This document shows positions 2,827 through 56,297 of a stretch of 64,000 nt of DNA, piece by piece. Source of the stretch: Candidatus Gastranaerophilales bacterium. GTDB taxonomy: Bacteria; Cyanobacteriota; Vampirovibrionia; Gastranaerophilales; JANQFW01. The stretch is taken from NCBI GenBank assembly GCA_028280605.1, contig JANQLL010000185.1, positions 1,567-65,566 of the forward strand, read 5' to 3'. Position 1 is the stretch's first letter. Every line of letters begins with the position of its first letter. A model generated the notes under the pieces. It made no database searches, was not told the DNA's origin, and saw only the letters and a list, made by a program, of their open reading frames with translations. The translations under genes and the position numbers were made by a program.

Positions 2827-5421
2827 TTAATTAACACCATTAAAAGCATTTATATAAAGCTCCTTCATCTCAGACATCAAAGGATATCTTGGATTAGCGC
2901 CAGTACACTGGTCATCAAAAGCAAGCTCGGTTATTTCATCTATTTGGGCATAGAATTCTTCTTCACTAACCCCTGCCTCTTTGATTGATAAAGGTATATC
3001 AAGTTCCTTTTTAAGATTTTGTACTGCATTGATTAATGCATCAACTTTTTCATCATCGTTATTACCGTTCAATCCAATAACTGAAGCAATTTTAGCATAT
3101 CTCACCTTTGCGCTTGGATATTTATACTGAGGGAAAGAACACTGTTTTGTAGGATTATCCGTTGCATTGTACCTGATAATCTGATTTATCATAAGAGCAT
3201 TGGCAATACCATGCGGCAAGTCAAATGTAGCCCCAAGCTTGTGAGCCATTGAATGACACAACCCTAAAAACGAATTCGCAAACGCCATACCTGCCATTGT
3301 TCCTGCATAGTGCATTTTTTCCCTTGCTAATTGATTTTTAGCACCTTCTTTGTAGGATAAAGGAAGATATTCAAATATCATTTGTATTGATTCAAGTGCA
3401 ATGCCGTCAGTATAATCGCTGGCAACCACGGAAACATAGGCTTCAAGCGCGTGCGTTAACGCATCAATACCAGAAGCTGCTGTCAAGCCTTTTGGCATAT
3501 GCATAACAAAATCAGGATCAACAATCGCCATATTGGGAGTTAGTGCATAATCAGCAATAGGATATTTAATATGGGTCTTATCATCTGTAATTACAGCAAA
3601 AGGTGTAACTTCAGAACCTGTACCTGATGTTGTAGGTATTGCTACCATATCAGCCTTGTTTCCAAGTGCCGGTACCTGGCAAATTCTTTTTCTTATATCC
3701 ATAAAGCGCATCGCTATATCATCAAATTTTAAGTCCGGCTGTTCATACATCAGCCATATTATTTTAGCGGCATCAATAGGAGAACCGCCACCCAATGCAA
3801 TAATAACATCCGGCTTAAAGCTGTTAACTGTTTCCAATGCGTGGTTTACTGTAGTCAAATCAGGATCAGGCTTAACGTCAGAAAATATTTGATAATTAAT
3901 ATCCATTTCTTCAAGTACATTAGTAACTTTATGAGTATACCCAAGATCAAAAAGAACTTTATCTGTAATAATAAAAGCTTTTTGCTTGCACTCAAGTTCT
4001 TTTAAAGCTAATTCCACAGCTCCTTGCTTAAAATAAATTTTAGGAGGAACCCTAAACCACAGCATATTCTCTCTCCTTTCAGCAACAGTTTTAATATTAA
4101 TAAGATGATGAATCTCTACGTTTTCACTAACAGAATTCCCGCCCCAGGAGCCACAACCCAGAGTTAAAGAAGGAGTAAGCCTAAAGTTATAAATATCTCC
4201 AATTGCACCGTGAGAAGAAGGAGAATTAACAAGCACCCTGCCTGTTTCAATGTTATTACTAAATTGTTCAATACGATCTTTATTTAAAGGATTAGTATAA
4301 AGAACAGAAGTATGGCCCTGTCCGCCAAATTCTATAAGCTTAACAGATTTATCTATTGCCTCATCATAGTTATGAGCATAATATAAAGCAAGAATTGGTG
4401 ATAGTTTTTCATAAGAAAGAGGCTCTTCTGTACCGACTTTATCAACTTCACCTATTAGGACTTTTGTATTTTCAGGCACTTCAAGTCCTGCAAGCTGTGC
4501 GATTTTATAAGCGGGCTGCCCTACTATTTGGGCATTTAGTTTACCATCTTGTATTATTACTTCTCTTACACGATCCTTTTCCCAATCATTGAGTATATAA
4601 GCGCTGCGATAGATAAATTCATCTTTTACTGCATTGTAAACATCTGAAACAGCCACAACCGATTGTTCAGATGCGCAAATAACACCATTATCAAAAGTTT
4701 TGCTCATCAAAATTGAACTAACAGACATTTTAATATCAGCTGTTTCATCTATAATTGCAGGAGTATTACCCGCACCTACGCCTAAAGCAGGCTTACCCGA
4801 ACTGTACGCTGCTTTTACCATACTTGGCCCACCTGTAGCTAATATTAAATTGACCTTAGGATGGTGCATTAAATGCAGAGAAGATTCAACAGTAGGTTCT
4901 TCCAGCCAGCCGATAATATCTTTAGGAGCTCCCGCATCAATTGCCGCTTGCAATGTTATTCTTGCGGCTTCGATAGTACAATTTTTTGCCCTGGGATGAG
5001 GAGAAAAAATAATGGCATTTCTTGTTTTTAATGCAAGCAATGCCTTAAATATAGCTGTTGAAGTCGGATTTGTAGTTGGTATTATACCGGCTATTATACC
5101 TATGGGCTCAGCTACTTTTGTTATTCCGTTTGTTATATCTTCTTCTATAATCCCGCAGGTTTTAGAATTTTTAAATTTATTAAAAATATATTCAGACGCA
5201 AAATGATTTTTTATAACCTTATCTTCTACTATGCCCATTGAGGTTTCTTCCACAGCCTGCTTAGCCAGAGGAACCCTCATGTTATTGGCTGCTAATGCTG
5301 CTGCTTTAAAAATTTTATCAACCTGTTCTTGTGTATACGTAGAATAAATTTTTTGTGCTTCTGTTGCTTTTTGAATAACTAAATCTAAAGCTTCTGAATC
5401 AAACGTTTTCATAGTATCCAT
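2827..5421 (-). CDS. adhE: Bifunctional acetaldehyde-CoA/alcohol dehydrogenase AdhE
   Basis: 864 aa. N-terminal ALDH domain with catalytic Cys context VICASEQS; C-terminal iron-ADH domain with GGGSPIDAAK. SD GGAG lies upstream of the ATG. Confidence 0.95.
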   Translation of the reverse strand: MDTMKTFDSEALDLVIQKATEAQKIYSTYTQEQVDKIFKAAALAANNMRVPLAKQAVEETSMGIVEDKVIKNHFASEYIFNKFKNSKTCGIIEEDITNGITKVAEPIGIIAGIIPTTNPTSTAIFKALLALKTRNAIIFSPHPRAKNCTIEAARITLQAAIDAGAPKDIIGWLEEPTVESSLHLMHHPKVNLILATGGPSMVKAAYSSGKPALGVGAGNTPAIIDETADIKMSVSSILMSKTFDNGVICASEQSVVAVSDVYNAVKDEFIYRSAYILNDWEKDRVREVIIQDGKLNAQIVGQPAYKIAQLAGLEVPENTKVLIGEVDKVGTEEPLSYEKLSPILALYYAHNYDEAIDKSVKLIEFGGQGHTSVLYTNPLNKDRIEQFSNNIETGRVLVNSPSSHGAIGDIYNFRLTPSLTLGCGSWGGNSVSENVEIHHLINIKTVAERRENMLWFRVPPKIYFKQGAVELALKELECKQKAFIITDKVLFDLGYTHKVTNVLEEMDINYQIFSDVKPDPDLTTVNHALETVNSFKPDVIIALGGGSPIDAAKIIWLMYEQPDLKFDDIAMRFMDIRKRICQVPALGNKADMVAIPTTSGTGSEVTPFAVITDDKTHIKYPIADYALTPNMAIVDPDFVMHMPKGLTAASGIDALTHALEAYVSVVASDYTDGIALESIQMIFEYLPLSYKEGAKNQLAREKMHYAGTMAGMAFANSFLGLCHSMAHKLGATFDLPHGIANALMINQIIRYNATDNPTKQCSFPQYKYPSAKVRYAKIASVIGLNGNNDDEKVDALINAVQNLKKELDIPLSIKEAGVSEEEFYAQIDEITELAFDDQCTGANPRYPLMSEMKELYINAFNGVN

Positions 5422-25742: not shown

Positions 25743-25849
25743 TATACTCCCACTAAAATACTTTTCAGATTATTAAATCGAGTTAAAGTTAATAAAATAA
25801 ACTATTCTCTGGAAAGAGTAATCTGAAATTTAATTGATGAGCAGTATAA
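25743..25849 (-). repeat. 107-nt imperfect-palindrome repeat, copy A
   Basis: The reverse complement differs from copy C (43590-43696) at 3 of 107 positions by hand alignment. Confidence 0.85.
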
Positions 25850-25895
25850 GTAATATAGTTATTATAATATATTAAACTTAAAATTGCGTTCTGTT

Positions 25896-26054: not shown

Positions 26055-26921
26055 ATGGCTTTTAATGCAGTTGGTGGCATAGCGCAAGTAAATGGACGAC
26101 CTGGCCCTTATGATAATAGGGTTAAAAATCCAAACGTTAGATACGGCAGAAATGCAGTAGCGAATTATGCTGAATATAATGCAAGGTTAAGCTTGCCGGC
26201 TGATCAATTTGATGCTCCGGATGTTAACGCTTTAGCTGGAGACTTGGCAGATTCTTTACAAGTTGCTAAAAGAATCAGTACAACAAAAATTCTACAAGCT
26301 TACGGAATAATTAATCCAAAATTTGCAGATGTAATCTTAAAAAGAGATGAAGGGCGTTTAGCTCAACAAAATGAAAGTACAGGGCAACGGTTAGATCAAC
26401 TAGAGGGTTGGACTAATGAGCAGCACAATATAATTGAAAATGCAGCTCCTATTGGCTTTAAACTACAGTATCTGCCAGAGGATAAAGTAACCCCAAAAAA
26501 TTTAAATAAATTAGCACTCATGGCTGCATCATTTGAAGATTTAGGCAAGAAAATTTCAATACCGGTAGTCCAAATAACTCAAGGCCTACAGCAAATCTTT
26601 GGTAAAAAAGTTTCGGCTGAAGCTCTTGATGCAAATAATGATGGTCAAATTGATATTGCAGAAAACGCTACTTCTATTTTAATAAAAGATATGGCAGATA
26701 AGCATTCAACAGATGATGTTGTAGCAACGGGCAAGCTTGACTTACAAGCAAAAGACATAGATGGTACTTATACAAATACTGGCGAAACTAATATTTGGTC
26801 CTTTTTAAAAACTGATAAGATTAGTGAAACAAAGCAACTTATTACTCAAATTTATAATGCTTTTCAATTAGATAAAGCAAAAGAAGAATTTTTAAGTGAT
26901 GAAAATAATACCATACAATAA
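26055..26921 (+). CDS. Hypothetical protein with one EF-hand-like calcium-binding loop
   Basis: 288-aa ORF. DANNDGQIDIAE (26628-26663) fits the DxNxDGxIDxxE EF-hand loop. No signal peptide. Confidence 0.6.
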   Translation: MAFNAVGGIAQVNGRPGPYDNRVKNPNVRYGRNAVANYAEYNARLSLPADQFDAPDVNALAGDLADSLQVAKRISTTKILQAYGIINPKFADVILKRDEGRLAQQNESTGQRLDQLEGWTNEQHNIIENAAPIGFKLQYLPEDKVTPKNLNKLALMAASFEDLGKKISIPVVQITQGLQQIFGKKVSAEALDANNDGQIDIAENATSILIKDMADKHSTDDVVATGKLDLQAKDIDGTYTNTGETNIWSFLKTDKISETKQLITQIYNAFQLDKAKEEFLSDENNTIQ

Positions 26922-27054
26922 CCATATATAGAGAATGCTCTTTTCTACTTGTTTAGTAAACTTTTTGTAACAATCATTCAACTTTCATGAAATACTTTAA
27001 CAAATATGTTATACTATATATATAGCATATAAATAATAGGTAGGTGTATTGGTC

Positions 27055-27507
27055 ATGAAAATAACACAATACGTTAAAACTCTATTTTTTATTTTGTGGA
27101 ATATGATAACATTCCTATGTTTAATTATTGCCCCGCAAAATTTAAATTCGGTGAAAGAACTTTGTTTATCTGTTCTTAAACGTATAGATAGTTATTTTTA
27201 TAATATATTTTTATATTTAAAAGAATTAAAAAAGAAAATAATAATAAATAAAAACAATAAAGCTGATGCCTCATCAGCACAACCTATTAATAAAAGTAAA
27301 AAACAAGTATTAAACTCGTTTGATATTAATAATAATATATTAAATCAAGCAGTAAAATCTTCAAAACGCTTATCTAACAACAAATTAAAGGATGCGCCAG
27401 CCACGCAAAATTTAATTTCAAAACAGCACTTTTTCCGCTTACAGGATAAGTGTGCCTTTTTATACTCTTTTGTAAGCAAAAACCATTGCAGTCTATATAT
27501 TTTTTAA
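27055..27507 (+). CDS. Small N-terminally anchored K/N-rich protein, paralogue 1
   Basis: 150 aa from the ATG at 27055. TM helix LFFILWNMITFLCLIIA. C-terminal LKDAPATQNLISKQHFFRLQDKCAFLY is shared with 55706-56191. Confidence 0.55.
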   Translation: MKITQYVKTLFFILWNMITFLCLIIAPQNLNSVKELCLSVLKRIDSYFYNIFLYLKELKKKIIINKNNKADASSAQPINKSKKQVLNSFDINNNILNQAVKSSKRLSNNKLKDAPATQNLISKQHFFRLQDKCAFLYSFVSKNHCSLYIF

Positions 27508-27770
27508 TTTTTACATCACATACAATTGAATATTTTTTTCAGCTCTCTTTAAGGCTAAAAGAGGCGGAATTTATAATGGATACTTTAATCACTAGTAAAA
27601 AGTATCCATTATAATTATATATGAATTCCTATGTCATACCCTTAAATTAAATATAAAAATCGGGCTTGGCTCAAAAAAGGGCCAAAGCAAAAGCTAGATT
27701 TAGAAATTATGAATAATATTTTTTTACTTTAAATTTTTATTTCTTAAAATTTTAAAAATTACTTAATATA

Positions 27771-29251: not shown

Positions 29252-29294
29252 GTAAAAATTTAACCTTTTTTGCTTTTTTATTATTAAAATTTTA

Positions 29295-29399
29295 TTATAC
29301 AGGTTTTCAATTAAATTTCAGATTACTCTTTTCAGAGATTAGCTTACTTTATTAACTTTTACACTATTTAAAAATCTGAAAAGTATTTTAGAAGTAATA
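29295..29399 (+). repeat. Imperfect-palindrome repeat, copy B (diverged)
   Basis: About 85% identical to copy C by hand alignment. Lies between the rhodanese stop and the DUF1007 start. Confidence 0.75.
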
Positions 29400-29408
29400 T
29401 AAATATAT

Positions 29409-43357: not shown

Positions 43358-43589
43358 ATAATTGAGATTTAAAAAACATTAAGGATTATTAAGTATTGTT
43401 TGCTATAAACATGCTGATTTGTATGCATCAAAATTTTATTGAAAATATTATTAATTTATATCTTTTTGATTTTATTTTTTTTTAAAGATAATAATAGTCC
43501 ATTTGATTTAGCAATTATTTAGAAAACTTTGTTTTTATAATATTGGAGATAAGGATGAAGCAAAAAGAAAAGGGTAAGAAAAAAGCTAA

Positions 43590-43696
43590 TTATACTGCTC
43601 ATCAATTAAATTTCAGATTACCCTTTTCAGAGAATAGTTTATTTTATTAACTTTAACTCGATTTAATAATCTGAAAAGTATTTTAGTGGAAGTATA
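43590..43696 (+). repeat. 107-nt imperfect-palindrome repeat, copy C
   Basis: 104/107 identical to the reverse complement of 25743-25849. Internal perfect pairing TTTCAGATTA (43611-43620) with TAATCTGAAA (43667-43676). Confidence 0.85.
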
Positions 43697-44036
43697 ATAA
43701 CAAAGTTTAAATAAAAAATAAAGCTTATAAAATAAGCTGAAAACTGAAGCGAATAGTTAAAAGTTAATTGTGAGTATTATAAATAATATTGAAGTGAAAA
43801 AGATAGGGAAATAAATTCCGCTAGTGTTAAAATGATGCGGAAAAAGGGAATAAACAGGGGAAGTAAGATATTTTAGCGTGTAAAACACGAGATTGAAAAA
43901 TTAAATAGGATCAGGAATTTGGACGAGTAAGTTTAGGAAGCTTATATACAGAATTGCAAAAAAATACCTCATATACCTTAATATACCTCATAGCTTATAC
44001 ACATATTGCAGTTTATACAAACTGCATTTTTATTTT
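43697..44036 (+). ncRNA. Candidate GGA-rich, C-poor non-coding RNA ending at an intrinsic terminator
   Basis: Eight GGA motifs lie between 43807 and 43938. Local hairpins include TTCCGC..GCGGAA and CGTGT-AAA-ACACG. No ORF of 60 aa or more in any frame. Terminator at 44007-44036. Confidence 0.3.
44007..44036 (+). terminator. Intrinsic terminator
   Basis: 8-bp stem TGCAGTTT/AAACTGCA, 4-nt loop, then TTTTTATTTT. Confidence 0.65.
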
Positions 44037-48716: not shown

Positions 48717-48791
48717 AATTTTATTAATAAAATATTGAATTTCTTTTATGTAATATATATCATAATTTTAATAAGTAAAAAGTAGTATTAA

Positions 48792-48880
48792 AATAGAATA
48801 ATTGGGAAACTTCGGTGAAAATCCGAGGCTGTGTCGCAACTGTAAGGGTAAAACCTAAGCCAGAACACCACTATTCTATT
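48792..48880 (+). promoter_or_regulatory. Cobalamin riboswitch aptamer (compact form)
   Basis: GGGAAAC..GGTGAAAATCC..GCTGTGTCGCAACTGTAAGGG..AGCCAGAACACC core with B12-box-like element. P1 pairs AATAGAATA (48792-48800) with TATTCTATT (48872-48880). Lies upstream of the btuBCDF-like genes. Confidence 0.8.
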
Positions 48881-49116
48881 CTATCTTACTCTTGCGATGC
48901 ACAAGAAAAGGAGATAAAAGATGATAAAATTAGAATAGCACAATCTATATTGACAGACTTCTTATTTTAAGTTTGTTCTTTTGTATAAAATTCTCAAAAC
49001 TTAATAATTTATACAAAAACCTAATTTTAAAAGTCAAATAAGTAATATAACATTTATTATTACCTATTTGATTAATGTTGATTTGTTTTATATATAGAAA
49101 GAACTAAAAAGAAAAT

Positions 49117-55042: not shown

Positions 55043-55705
55043 TCTAAAATTACCCTCTTTATTACTTATTAATGTACTTTTTTGACGAGTATGTCCACGT
55101 AAATTCTATACTTATCAAGCTTAAAAATAATCATTCATTTTAAGTAAAAGGGTATATATAATGTACTGAGAAAACTGAACCAGAAAAAATAAAAAGTGTT
55201 TCCCTGATAAAATAAATTAAATAAAGAATGAAATCATCTAAAATTGTTTCATCCAATTTAGTTTCTTTTTTGTCAAAAATCAGAGAAGACTGATTATATA
55301 AAACTTTTGAATCATACGACATTAAAGACTTTGTTGATAGACCCTTAAAATATACTTTAACAAAATTAATTGATATATCTTGTTTAAAGGATATTGATGG
55401 TGGGAATTTAAACGAAGATATTGCAAGGCAAAGGGAATGCCCCAAAATCCTTATTTCAAAGTAAAAAAAAGAATACAAGAGCTGAAGAAAGAAAATTAAT
55501 AATATACAAAATGAATAATATAACAGTGCAAGCACAAAGCAATCAAATCTTTTAAGCTAAGCGTGCTTTAGAAAATTTTTCCTTGATTTTTTATTAAGAA
55601 ATGCTACAAAATTAGCATTTTCACATTTCAGGAGCCTGCGGAAATTTTAAAAAAATGCTAAAATATATATAAAGTATACAATTGAAATTAGTGAGTGTAT
55701 TGGTC

Positions 55706-56191
55706 ATGAAACTATCACAATACATAAAAACTTTATATGCAATCTTGTGGAATCTAATAGCATTCCTATGTTCAATTATTTCATTAAGTAATATCACGAA
55801 AAAGAAAACACCTTCTTTTTCGCTTTTAGTATATGCTTACAATATTTTAACCATGACTTATAAAGATTTAAATGAACTTATAAATAATATATTATCAAAA
55901 CAAAAACATAATAACACTGCTGCAACAACGGCAGTAACAAACCCTATATACAAAAACAAAAACTCTGTATCAAACAGAGTAAAATCTAATAACATATTAA
56001 TAAACCAAGCACTAAAAAGTGCAAACTTATTATCAACCTTGAGATTAAAGGATGCGCCAGCCACGCAAATGTTAATTTCAAAACAGCACTTTGTTCGCTT
56101 ACAGGATAAGTGTGCCTTTTTATACCCCTTTTGTAAGCAAAAGTCATTGCAGTTAATAAATCTTTTAATTTTTACATCAACACATAATTGA
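55706..56191 (+). CDS. Small N-terminally anchored K/N-rich protein, paralogue 2
   Basis: ATG at 55706. TM helix LYAILWNLIAFLCSIISL. C-terminal LKDAPATQMLISKQHFVRLQDKCAFLY is shared with 27055-27507. Confidence 0.5.
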   Translation: MKLSQYIKTLYAILWNLIAFLCSIISLSNITKKKTPSFSLLVYAYNILTMTYKDLNELINNILSKQKHNNTAATTAVTNPIYKNKNSVSNRVKSNNILINQALKSANLLSTLRLKDAPATQMLISKQHFVRLQDKCAFLYPFCKQKSLQLINLLIFTSTHN

Positions 56192-56254
56192 ATATTTTTT
56201 TTGACTCTCTTTAAGGCTAAAAGTACGGGTTTTGTGATGCCCGCATAATCTATA

Positions 56255-56297
56255 CAAAAAACTAAAGCTGCTCCGATGTGGGGCAGCCTTAGTTTTT
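56255..56297. terminator. Bidirectional terminator
   Basis: A6 run, stem CTAAAGCTGC/GCAGCCTTAG (9 of 10 pairs), T5 run, between convergent genes. Confidence 0.6.

What the first reader, a model, noticed from the sequence alone, without database searches (positions are those of the whole stretch)
27040..27561. Mosaic paralogue pair (27055-27507 and 55706-56191): conserved ends, diverged middle, and nucleotide conservation that ignores the reading frame
The two small ORFs share an almost identical start region (GTGTATTGGTCATGAAA...) and TM helix. They also share a ~180-nt 3' block (27384-27561 versus 56044-56223) that I estimate at roughly 85-90% identity. Their K/N-rich middles are much more diverged. 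After the shared ...KCAFLY codons, a 1-nt indel (TATAC-TC-TTTTGTAAGC versus TATAC-CCC-TTTTGTAAGC) puts the same downstream nucleotides in different frames (FVSKNHCSLYIF* versus FCKQKSLQLINLLIFTSTHN*). Similarity nevertheless continues ~100 nt further, past both stop codons, to CTCTCTTTAAGGCTAAAAG. So the 3' block is preserved at the DNA/RNA level: by recent gene conversion, as a 3'-UTR element, or as a recombination substrate. It is not preserved by selection on the protein tail.
Basis: seen in the sequence. Interest (0 to 1): 0.55.

Follow-up and report, generated by a model that had tools for sequence, protein, structure and literature searches.

The report
Mosaic small-gene family with conserved tail
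Two small membrane-protein genes in this gut-bacterium genome belong to an unnamed multi-copy family that swaps segments between copies, and the last ~180 bases are conserved as nucleotide sequence (probably a folded end of the mRNA) rather than as protein; this is a tidy, modestly interesting case, not a new kind of system.

Summary
Copy A (27055-27507) and copy B (55706-56191) are 80% identical in the 5' block, 53% in the middle and 90% (162/180) in the 3' block. Two 1-nt indels change the reading frame, and similarity runs past both stop codons to ...GGCTAAAAG.

They are the only two copies in the window. The family is unnamed and restricted to Gastranaerophilales assemblies: 26 further loci, and only 16 representatives among 1.84 billion proteins.

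Each copy is a complete transcription unit. It has an extended -10 promoter, an ORF with an N-terminal membrane helix, a conserved 3'UTR and an intrinsic terminator with compensatory base changes.

Selection differs by segment. The N-terminus is under protein-level selection (pS 0.51, pN 0.21). The middle is nearly unconstrained (dN/dS about 0.9). The 3' coding block has threefold lower synonymous divergence (pS 0.17) and no third-position relaxation.

Segment types reassort freely among copies (four-gamete combinations; PHI-like test 1/2000), so the mosaic reading holds.

Two sense-strand hairpins fit the variation pattern, but there is no double-sided covariation. My best reading is paralogue shuffling plus a functional mRNA 3' element. 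What the protein and the 3' element do is unknown.

The parts
26987..27015 (+). Copy A promoter: -35-like ATGAAA (26987-26992), TG (27007-27008), -10 TATACT (27010-27015)
   Evidence: Scan (9/12 matches, TG before the -10). The TGnTAnAAT column block is conserved in the 15-copy alignment.
27055..27507 (+). Copy A ORF, 150 aa, including the stop codon. N-terminal TM helix 27055-27132; K/N-rich fast-evolving middle 27133-27381; conserved C-block 27382-27471; unconstrained tail 27472-27507
   Evidence: Open in all 20 family copies recovered. NG86 by region.
27381..27419 (+). Hairpin H1 of copy A (CAAAUUAAA-GGAU-GCG-CCAGCCA-CGC-AAAA-UUUAAUUUC). This is the most invariant stretch of the family.
   Evidence: I9. 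97% of cells are paired on the + strand across 15 distinct sequences. Non-wobble variation falls only in unpaired columns.
27426..27455 (+). Hairpin H2 of copy A (GCACUUUUUCC / loop GCUUACA / GGAUAAGUGUGC). It competes with an alternative hairpin, 27432-27443 with 27471-27482.
   Evidence: I16. In long-form relatives a 99-nt in-frame insert sits exactly in this loop.
27461..27472 (+). Frame-changing site of copy A, TATAC-TC-TTTTG (copy B has TATAC-CCC-TTTTG). Most family members carry C CCT TTT here.
27508..27561 (+). Copy A conserved 3'UTR, including ACATACAATTGAATA and CTCTCTTTAAGGCTAAAAG (27543-27561)
   Evidence: entropy 0.11 in 27545-27559.
27571..27614 (+). Copy A class-1 terminator hairpin (arms 27571-27586 and 27599-27614)
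   Evidence: I2: 16-nt arms, 100% complementary. The class-1 hairpin alignment has compensatory changes in 7 of 14 pairs.
55599..55620 (+). Copy B upstream palindrome AAATGCTA-CAAAAT-TAGCATTT. It marks the usual left limit of family similarity.
   Evidence: Read. The ATTAAGnAATGyTACAAAAnTAGCATTTT block is conserved.
55656..55664 (+). Copy B extended -10 element TGCTAAAAT
   Evidence: Read. The column block is conserved.
55706..56191 (+). Copy B ORF, 161 aa, including the stop codon. Its tail is read in the -1 frame relative to most of the family.
56041..56079 (+). Hairpin H1 of copy B
56086..56115 (+). Hairpin H2 of copy B
56121..56133 (+). Frame-changing site of copy B (TATACCCCTTTTG; the extra C is at 56125)
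56192..56223 (+). Copy B conserved 3'UTR, ending in CTCTCTTTAAGGCTAAAAG
56224..56297 (+). Copy B class-2 3' end: hairpin TACGGG...CCCGCATA, then an intrinsic terminator (stem 56267-56287 plus a T run). The terminator is shared with the convergent phosphoglucomutase gene.
   Evidence: (I2). This end is 89% identical to that of L011.

Best explanation
The two ORFs are members of an unnamed multi-copy gene family restricted to Gastranaerophilales. The genes encode small (146-188 aa) proteins with one N-terminal membrane helix.

Shown:
- Each copy is a self-contained transcription unit: upstream palindrome, extended -10 promoter, short variable 5'UTR, ORF, conserved 3'UTR and intrinsic terminator.
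- The family evolves by duplication plus repeated homologous exchange between paralogues. Variable modules (5'UTR type, middle class, H2-loop insert, tail type, terminator class) are separated by near-invariant stretches of 15-47 nt and reassort freely.
- The last ~180 nt (the final 28-30 codons plus the 3'UTR) are constrained as nucleotides.

Inferred:
- That constraint acts on the sense-strand mRNA. The mRNA would form two hairpins inside the coding end (H1, H2), followed by a conserved A/U-rich and CUCUUUAAGGCUAAAAG segment directly before the terminator.
- This 3' element most likely controls mRNA stability, processing or translation for all paralogues, or yields a 3'-derived small RNA. 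As a by-product it provides the homology tracts at which the paralogues recombine.
- The peptide after ...DKCAFLYPF is not itself selected, so 1-nt indels there are tolerated.

What the protein and the 3' element do is unknown.
For: Real coding gene:
- The ORF is open in all 20 recovered copies despite about 70% A+T.
- Internal indels are multiples of three.
- The N-terminal block has coding-type periodicity, 0.59/0.43/0.81, and dN/dS 0.29.

Transcription unit:
- The TGnTAnAAT element and the ATG are conserved.
- The class-1 terminator hairpin has compensatory changes in 7 of 14 pairs.

Nucleotide-level constraint:
- C-block pS is 0.17, against 0.51 in the N-terminus. Its entropy is 0.22/0.34/0.21.
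- Copy A versus L009 has pS 0.45, 0.20 and 0.00 in N-terminus, middle and C-block, and the tail plus UTR is 97% identical.
- Conservation runs through three reading frames and past the stop codons.

Structure:
- H1 and H2 are recovered by RNAalifold in both short and long forms. 98.5% of cells pair, against 24-60% when partners are slid.
- All 8 one-sided stem changes are G-U-compatible on the + strand. H1 pairs at 97% on the + strand and 92% on the - strand.
- The variable, non-synonymous positions (P/Q/L, D/V/A, N/M/I/S) lie in loops.
- The 99-nt insert of long forms sits in the H2 loop. Its GGTGAC/GTCACC hairpin shows C-G, U-G and U-A states.

Mosaic:
- Four-gamete combinations in 7 of 10 segment pairs.
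- PHI-like test 0.469 versus 0.521±0.013, 1/2000.
- Different nearest relatives per segment.
- 13 of 26 loci are cut by a contig end inside the element.
Against: - H1 and H2 show no double-sided covariation in the 13 short forms, and the shuffle controls are uninformative because the stem columns barely vary.
- Single-sequence folding of copy A is not better than shuffles (z=-1.1). Copy B's z=-3.0 is driven by its terminators.
- Single-sequence MFE folds prefer an alternative hairpin (27432-27443 with 27471-27482) that competes with H2.
- No Rfam family matches.
- How far apart the three genomes are could not be calibrated, because no shared housekeeping gene lies in the fetched loci.
- The MAG with most copies is fragmented and may mix strains: L010 equals L011, and L020 looks like an allele of L014. 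Copy number per genome is therefore uncertain.
- No expression data exist. The function of both the protein and the RNA element is inferred, not shown.
Confidence: 0.55

Rival explanations
1. Pure concerted evolution. The 3' block has no function as RNA. It is simply the segment most often homogenised by gene conversion between paralogues (a recombination hot spot), and its uniformity is a by-product.
For: - There is strong evidence of exchange between copies.
- In PL23b_bin.96 the block is similar enough between copies to break a k=99 assembly at 13 loci.
- Two copies from bin.2 with different middle classes (L006, L013) share a genome-specific tail variant.
- The stems show no double-sided covariation.
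Against: - The same invariant stretches occur in copies from at least three assemblies whose N-terminal synonymous sites differ by 0.3-0.5. Conversion within one genome cannot keep copies in different genomes alike.
- Residual variation is not random. It sits in predicted loops or is wobble-compatible on the sense strand.
- The equally recombining N-terminal block keeps normal synonymous divergence.
Confidence: 0.22
2. Type I toxin-antitoxin-like modules. The membrane protein is a toxin, and the conserved 3' block is conserved because an antisense RNA is transcribed across it, as with convergent 3'-overlapping pairs such as txpA/RatA or bsrG/SR4.
For: - The loci are multi-copy, dispersed, lineage-specific and unannotated, and each has a strong promoter and an N-terminal hydrophobic helix.
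- On the - strand, H1 reads as a G+C hairpin followed by TCCTTTAATT and was flagged as terminator-like.
- Copy A has an 11/12 promoter match on the - strand at 27637-27608.
Against: - The proteins are 146-188 aa, not under ~60 aa.
- No - strand promoter is conserved in position across 21 copies. The copy A promoter match lies in non-conserved flank.
- Wobble changes favour + strand pairing: 97% versus 92%.
- No 5'-3' fold-back exceeds shuffled controls.
Confidence: 0.08
3. The whole ~0.7-kb unit, or its 3' end, is a mobile element: MITE-like, IS-derived, or retro-transposed from its 3' end. The conserved ends would be what the mobility machinery recognises.
For: - Copies are dispersed in unrelated gene contexts.
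- Internally deleted remnants keep both ends (L018, 223 nt; L023:2131-2281, 151 nt). 5'-truncated copies exist (L017, L020).
- Other small repeats cluster near the copies.
Against: - The two ends are not linked by terminal inverted repeats.
- No fixed boundaries or target duplications were seen. Similarity runs different distances into the flanks in different subsets: 50-160 nt further upstream in L008/L009/L016/L019/L023, about 100 nt in L004/L005, and about 45 nt past the terminator in class-2 copies.
- No transposase, recombinase or reverse transcriptase is a conserved neighbour.
- There are no hits in phage or plasmid records or in IMG/VR.
Confidence: 0.06
4. Dual coding with programmed -1 frameshifting. 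C CCU UUU at the Pro-Phe codons is a slippery heptamer, both tail frames are translated, and that constrains all codon positions downstream.
For: - The heptamer is in the X XXY YYZ register in 15 of 22 copies.
- Copy B and L013 carry an extra C that hard-wires the -1 frame.
- In several copies the LFLIFT* ending is reached in the 0 frame and in others in the -1 frame.
- The C preceding CCT is a conserved synonymous position.
Against: - Conservation continues 30-55 nt beyond the stop codons of every frame, up to the terminator.
- The strongest nucleotide constraint is upstream of the heptamer, in H1 and H2.
- Tails in both frames vary in length and sequence.
- Copies A and L009 lack the heptamer (CTCTTTT).
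- No convincing stimulatory structure or correctly spaced SD-like element was seen.
Confidence: 0.05

Closest known systems
Cassette-type variable gene families that recombine through conserved linkers (Neisseria pilE/pilS with the conserved 3' Sma/Cla repeat; Anaplasma msp2). Comparison from my own knowledge.
   Same: - Variable modules are flanked by short invariant DNA stretches.
- Paralogues are mosaic.
- A conserved block extends beyond the stop codon at the 3' end of every locus.
   Different: - Here every copy has its own promoter, start codon and terminator. There is no single expression site fed by silent cassettes.
- Surface exposure or antigenic role is unknown.
- The middle region looks relaxed (dN/dS about 0.9), not demonstrably diversifying.
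- No sequence homology.
3'UTR-derived small RNAs and 3' mRNA elements of enterobacteria (for example CpxQ, SroC, DapZ, MicL). Comparison from my own knowledge.
   Same: Nucleotide conservation is higher than in the upstream coding sequence. It starts inside the CDS, crosses the stop codon and ends at an intrinsic terminator.
   Different: - No evidence of a separate or processed RNA species.
- No positionally conserved internal promoter.
- The element is shared by a multi-copy paralogous family rather than one conserved gene.
- No Rfam match.
Long direct repeats that carry type I toxin-antitoxin loci (E. coli LDR ldr/rdl; hok/sok homologues). Comparison from my own knowledge.
   Same: Repeated units of ~0.5-0.7 kb, dispersed in the chromosome. 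Each encodes a small protein with a hydrophobic N-terminus and strongly conserved untranslated parts.
   Different: - The protein is three to five times longer.
- No conserved antisense promoter.
- No fold-back pairing.
- The middle of the unit is highly diverged.
Rickettsia palindromic elements inserted in frame into genes. Comparison from my own knowledge; applies only to the long-form relatives, not to the window copies.
   Same: A ~100-nt repeat also found free in intergenic DNA is present as a 99-nt in-frame, stop-free insert within the ORF in L007, L013, L016, L021 and L023-L026.
   Different: - Unrelated sequence.
- The insert sits in the loop of a conserved RNA hairpin.
- Absent from the window.

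Membership tests
Any described protein family (Pfam, NCBIfam, PHROGs, PADLOC) | Significant profile match | tested here: not met
   Only sub-threshold noise was found: best hits E=0.005-0.02, all below the curated cut-offs. The profile search of 1.84 billion representatives found 16 proteins, all family members. The AlphaFold2 model is all-helical with pLDDT 58.6 and is not usable for fold search.
Any described RNA family (Rfam 15) | Covariance-model match at or near the gathering score | tested here: not met
   There is no hit at the locus at gathering threshold. With E up to 10 there are only chance miRNA/snoRNA matches far below threshold. Long-form loci give no hit either.
Type I toxin-antitoxin | Toxin is a very small (roughly under 60 aa) hydrophobic peptide | tested here: not met
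   Family proteins are 146-188 aa and have about 100 hydrophilic K/N-rich residues.
Type I toxin-antitoxin | Antisense RNA gene with its own promoter overlapping the toxin mRNA | tested here: inconclusive
   No - strand sigma-70-like promoter is conserved in position among 21 copies. H1 pairs better on the + strand. However, a - strand terminator-like site at H1 and a strong - strand promoter match in copy A's non-conserved flank exist. Strand-specific RNA data are needed.
Type I toxin-antitoxin (hok-type) | Long-range 5'-3' fold-back pairing of the mRNA | tested here: not met
   RNAduplex energies between the 5' 150 nt and the 3' block (-26 to -36 kcal/mol) are no better than shuffles (-30 to -37) in 9 copies, and the positions are not consistent.
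MITE / non-autonomous transposon | Terminal inverted repeats at the two ends | tested here: not met
   No inverted repeat common to both copies joins the left and right ends. Only local hairpins were found.
MITE / non-autonomous transposon | Fixed element boundaries with unrelated flanks or target-site duplications | tested here: not met
   Similarity extends variable distances into the flanks in different subsets of copies. No filled/empty site pair was recovered.
Diversity-generating retroelement target (VR/TR) | Repeat copies differ mainly at positions that are adenine in the template | tested here: not met
   The 16 substitutions between the two blocks are of mixed types (C/T 8, A/G 3, T/G 2, T/A 3) and there are two indels. 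Only two copies of the block occur in the window, and each is part of a complete gene.
Diversity-generating retroelement target (VR/TR) | Reverse transcriptase and template repeat nearby | not tested
   I did not scan every window ORF. The ten neighbours scanned are housekeeping genes, and no gene is a conserved neighbour across loci.
3'UTR-derived sRNA / structured 3' mRNA element | Nucleotide conservation exceeding that of the CDS, crossing the stop codon and ending at an intrinsic terminator | tested here: met
   The terminator is supported by compensatory changes in 7 of 14 pairs.
3'UTR-derived sRNA / structured 3' mRNA element | Conserved secondary structure supported by covariation | tested here: inconclusive
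   98.5% of cells pair and 8 one-sided changes are wobble-compatible, but there are 0 double-sided changes in short forms. A few compensatory pairs occur only inside the long-form insert.
3'UTR-derived sRNA / structured 3' mRNA element | A stable separate or processed RNA species | not testable with these tools
   Requires RNA-seq, Term-seq or a northern blot.
Cassette-type variable gene family (pilE/pilS, msp2 type) | Variable modules between invariant linkers that reassort among copies | tested here: met
   Segment-level four-gamete combinations occur in 7 of 10 pairs. The PHI-like test gives 1/2000. Nearest neighbours differ per segment.
Cassette-type variable gene family (pilE/pilS, msp2 type) | One expression locus plus promoterless silent cassettes | tested here: not met
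   All full-length copies carry the promoter block, ATG and terminator. The few truncated copies look like decay products.

The most novel reading that the evidence does not exclude
The 3' block would be a previously undescribed structured RNA element: two hairpins embedded in the last ~30 codons, plus a conserved single-stranded CUCUUUAAGGCUAAAAG segment abutting the terminator. It would act in cis or as a 3'-derived small RNA to co-regulate a whole paralogous family of small membrane proteins. Its H2 loop can host a 99-nt in-frame mobile repeat. The C CCU UUU heptamer between H2 and the 3'UTR might additionally allow two alternative C-terminal tails.
Probability: 0.3. Interest if true: 0.55.

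Novelty: new variant of a known kind. Interest (0 to 1): 0.4.

Why it matters
- The finding defines an unannotated multi-copy gene family in Gastranaerophilales (Melainabacteria), a group with almost no experimental genetics. It also shows that the family's repeated 3' block is a recurrent cause of contig breaks in their assemblies.
- It is a clean natural example in which three kinds of selection are separable along one 0.5-kb gene: protein-level at the N-terminus, almost none in the middle, and nucleotide-level at the 3' end.
- It shows modular reshuffling between paralogues through short invariant linkers.
- If the 3' element proves to be a functional RNA, it would be a new RNA motif overlapping coding sequence.
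- If it does not, the locus is still a useful caution. ORF-based annotation and dN/dS analysis of such genes will mislead at the 3' end.

Tried and rejected
- **Known RNA family:** Rfam at gathering threshold and at E up to 10 gave nothing at the locus.
- **Known protein family or defence system:** Pfam, NCBIfam, PHROGs and PADLOC gave nothing significant.
- **Structure prediction:** pLDDT 58.6, all-helical, not good enough for a fold search.
- **Wider distribution:** a 20-nt core pattern found 0 hits in IMG/VR. It found 3 hits in JGI metagenomes, all high-GC chance matches with no further similarity. Phage and plasmid records gave no match.
- **Fetching DNA for five further family proteins (P0002, P0003, P0004, P0008, P0010):** the four exact look-ups tried (P0002, P0003, P0004, P0010) found nothing, and the cluster listing (which included P0008) gave no accessions.
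- **hok-like 5'-3' fold-back:** no better than shuffles.
- **Conserved antisense or internal promoter:** none conserved in position.
- **Transposon-type ends:** none.
- **Empty site:** the flank of L013 matched window 43378-44002, but the adjoining genes differ. It is another intergenic repeat, not an orthologous empty site.
- **DGR-type adenine mutagenesis:** rejected.
- **Relation of the window's 110-nt repeat to the long-form insert:** unrelated.
- **Literature search** for the source study of the MAGs: nothing found.
Full report
**1. Observation**

The two regions are as described. The mechanical ORF list gives 27049-27507 and 55682-56191. The start codon conserved in every family member is the ATG at 27055 and 55706.

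A MAFFT alignment with flanks, scored by segment, gives:
- 26940-27034: 52%
- 27035-27131: 80% (78/97)
- 27132-27383: 53% (139/261)
- 27384-27561 versus 56044-56223: 90% (162/180)
- beyond 27561: 42%

Inside the 3' block the still-in-frame part (27384-27465) is 94% identical. The part after the frame change (27466-27561) is 87% identical. The differences are 16 substitutions of mixed type and two single-base indels: an extra C at 56125 and an extra A at 56179.

The protein tails are FVSKNHCSLYIF* and FCKQKSLQLINLLIFTSTHN*. Profiles of the 3' block and of the 5' part each hit only these two places in the window, with E=1e-32 to 1e-54.

**2. A family, not a pair**

- A search of 5.8 billion protein clusters found 10 proteins, all unnamed and without Pfam domains.
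- A profile search of 1.84 billion representatives found 16, all of the same kind.
- A scan of one genome per species found 26 loci. Almost all lie in two Gastranaerophilales assemblies, PL23b_bin.96 and PL23b_bin.2. Two further contigs were binned elsewhere, and one of these (L010) is identical to L011 over 500 nt of flank.
- Thirteen of the 26 loci are cut by a contig end inside the element. This is what a repeat longer than the assembly k-mer does.
- JGI metagenomes, IMG/VR, and the phage and plasmid records hold nothing related.
- No gene is a conserved neighbour.
- In the window the neighbours are ordinary: GCS2 ligase, NicO/DUF1007, rhodanese and MurG around copy A; an SDF symporter, phosphoglucomutase and prephenate dehydratase around copy B.

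**3. Anatomy of a unit**

The 15-copy alignment shows this order:
- an upstream palindrome block, ATTAAGnAATGyTACAAAAnTAGCATTTT;
- an extended -10 element, TGnTAnAAT;
- a 5'UTR of variable length, falling into a few types;
- the conserved ATG;
- about 26 codons of membrane helix;
- about 85 K/N-rich codons;
- the block ...RLKDAPATQNLISKQHFFRLQDKCAFLYPF;
- a short tail;
- a 3'UTR with the invariant motifs ACATACAATTGAATA and CTCTTTAAGGCTAAAAG;
- a terminator of one of two main classes.

Copy A has class 1, and copy B has class 2. The class-1 hairpin differs in sequence between copies but keeps its pairing, with compensatory changes in 7 of 14 pairs. It is therefore a real terminator, and the conserved block is the 3' end of the mRNA.

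**4. Which kind of selection acts where**

| Region | Entropy at codon positions 1/2/3 | pS | pN | Reading |
|---|---|---|---|---|
| N-terminal block | 0.59 / 0.43 / 0.81 | 0.51 | 0.21 | the coding signature (dN/dS 0.29) |
| Middle | 0.81 / 0.77 / 0.73 | 0.37 | 0.34 | almost no constraint on the residues (dN/dS about 0.9) |
| C-block | 0.22 / 0.34 / 0.21 | 0.17 | 0.11 | no third-position relaxation |

- The middle frame stays open in all 20 recovered copies, and its indels are multiples of three.
- Synonymous sites of the C-block are three times better conserved than those of the N-terminus of the same genes.
- For the closest cross-assembly pair, copy A and L009, pS is 0.45 in the N-terminus, 0.20 in the middle and 0.00 in the C-block. 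The tail plus UTR is 97% identical.
- After ...PF, single-base indels are common, and the tail is read in different frames in different copies.

**5. Mosaicism**

- I classified 14 full copies by 5'UTR type, middle class, presence of an insert in the H2 loop, tail type and terminator class. All four combinations occur for 7 of the 10 pairs of characters.
- A PHI-like test on 127 informative sites gives 0.469, against 0.521±0.013 for permuted site order (1 of 2000 permutations as low).
- Nearest relatives change along the gene.
  - Copy A is closest to copy B only in the 5'UTR and start region. It is closest to L009 in the middle (80%), C-block (98%) and tail (97%).
  - Copy B is closest to L001 in the middle and to L011 in the terminator (89%).
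- The variable modules are separated by the near-invariant stretches. These are long enough (15-47 nt) to serve as homology for exchange. That last point is inference.
- Decay products also exist: internally deleted copies (L018; L023:2131-2281) and truncated ones (L017, L020).

**6. Is there an RNA structure?**

RNAalifold finds the same two hairpins in 13 short forms and 9 long forms.
- H1: GAGAUUAAA-GGAU-GCG-CCAGCCA-CGC-AAAA-UUUAAUUUC, at 27381-27419 and 56041-56079.
- H2: GCACUUUUUCC / loop / GGAUAAGUGUGC, at 27426-27455 and 56086-56115.

Support for the structure:
- 98.5% of cells pair, against 24-60% when the partners are slid.
- The eight stem columns that vary do so by wobble-compatible changes on the + strand.
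- H1 pairs at 97% on the + strand and 92% on the - strand across 15 distinct sequences.
- Positions that vary freely, although they change the amino acid (P/Q/L, D/V/A, N/M/I/S), are the unpaired ones.
- In nine relatives a 99-nt in-frame insert sits exactly in the H2 loop. One of its hairpins shows C-G, U-G and U-A states.

Limits of that support:
- Short forms show no double-sided covariation, and the shuffle control is uninformative because the stems barely vary.
- An alternative hairpin (27432-27443 with 27471-27482) competes with H2.
- Single-sequence folding energy is unremarkable for copy A.

I rate a functional sense-strand structure as likely but unproven.

**7. Alternatives tested**

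- **Antisense RNA / type I toxin-antitoxin.** The protein is too long. No - strand promoter is conserved in position. No fold-back pairing is detected. The - strand terminator-like reading of H1 keeps this option alive at a low level.
- **Mobile element.** There are no terminal inverted repeats. The boundaries are variable. There is no associated enzyme, and no empty site was recovered.
- **DGR.** The substitution spectrum is not adenine-specific.
- **Programmed -1 frameshift.** C CCU UUU is in register in 15 of 22 copies, and copy B hard-wires the -1 frame. However, conservation continues beyond all stop codons and is strongest upstream of the heptamer.
- **Pure gene conversion.** It explains the mosaic. 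It does not explain the cross-assembly invariance or the loop-restricted variation.

**8. Comparison with known systems** (from my own knowledge, not tested by homology)

- The modular reshuffling through conserved linkers, and a conserved block beyond the stop codon, resemble the pilE/pilS (Sma/Cla repeat) and msp2 systems. Here, though, every copy is an expressed-looking gene.
- The conservation profile resembles 3'UTR-derived sRNAs.
- The repeated ~0.7-kb units resemble the LDR and hok-type repeats, but the locus fails their defining features.
- The in-frame insert of the long forms recalls Rickettsia palindromic elements.

**9. Verdict**

It is a new, unnamed, lineage-restricted gene family whose evolution combines paralogue shuffling with nucleotide-level constraint on the mRNA 3' end. 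It is a new variant of known phenomena, not a new category. Interest is moderate (0.4). It would rise if the 3' element is shown to be a functional RNA.

Noticed in passing
window 25743-25852 (-), 29286-29402 (+), 43581-43697 (+): A ~110-nt repeat with short terminal inverted repeats (TTATACTGC...GGAGTATAA) and an internal palindrome; it looks like a MITE. Copies are 84-96% alike. Two of them bracket copy A in inverted orientation, 1.2 kb upstream and 1.7 kb downstream. The same repeat occurs near family copies in the other Gastranaerophilales assemblies, for example as two tandem copies downstream of L011.
   Followed up: partly
window 48779-48917 (+): An AdoCbl (B12) riboswitch (Rfam RF01482, 61.1 bits, E=9e-9). 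It lies upstream of a 670-aa ORF, which is followed by FecCD permease and periplasmic binding-protein genes. This is an ordinary arrangement.
   Followed up: no
L002:5430-5528, L018:3415-3511, L009:1-95 (rc), L002 about 3700-3765; as an insert in L007, L013, L016, L021, L023-L026: A second ~100-nt repeat (GGTAGTGGTCAGTT.AGTACTGATGCTTACAAGTAAACTTAAGTTATATCAAAAGCTTACAGCGATGACATAAGAAAGGTGATGACCATCACC) occurs free in intergenic DNA. It also occurs as a 99-nt in-frame insert in the H2 loop of 'long-form' family genes. It has no Rfam match and is absent from the window.
   Followed up: partly
L017:2925-3018: A group II intron D1-D4 fragment (RF02001, 47.9 bits) directly abuts a 5'-truncated family copy.
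   Followed up: no
window 43378-44002 versus L013:2413-2919: An intergenic block of about 0.6 kb, which includes a copy of the 110-nt repeat, is 73-84% similar between the window and a contig of another assembly. The adjoining genes differ, and in L013 the block lies immediately upstream of a family copy.
   Followed up: partly
window 27637-27608 (- strand): A near-consensus promoter match (ATGACA-18-TATAAT, 11/12) points into the 3' end of copy A from the non-conserved flank. It is not conserved in other copies.
   Followed up: partly
window 26055-26921 (+): A 288-aa ORF lies immediately upstream of copy A. It has no significant Pfam match, only a sub-threshold EF-hand hit. It is not found next to other family copies.
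   Followed up: no
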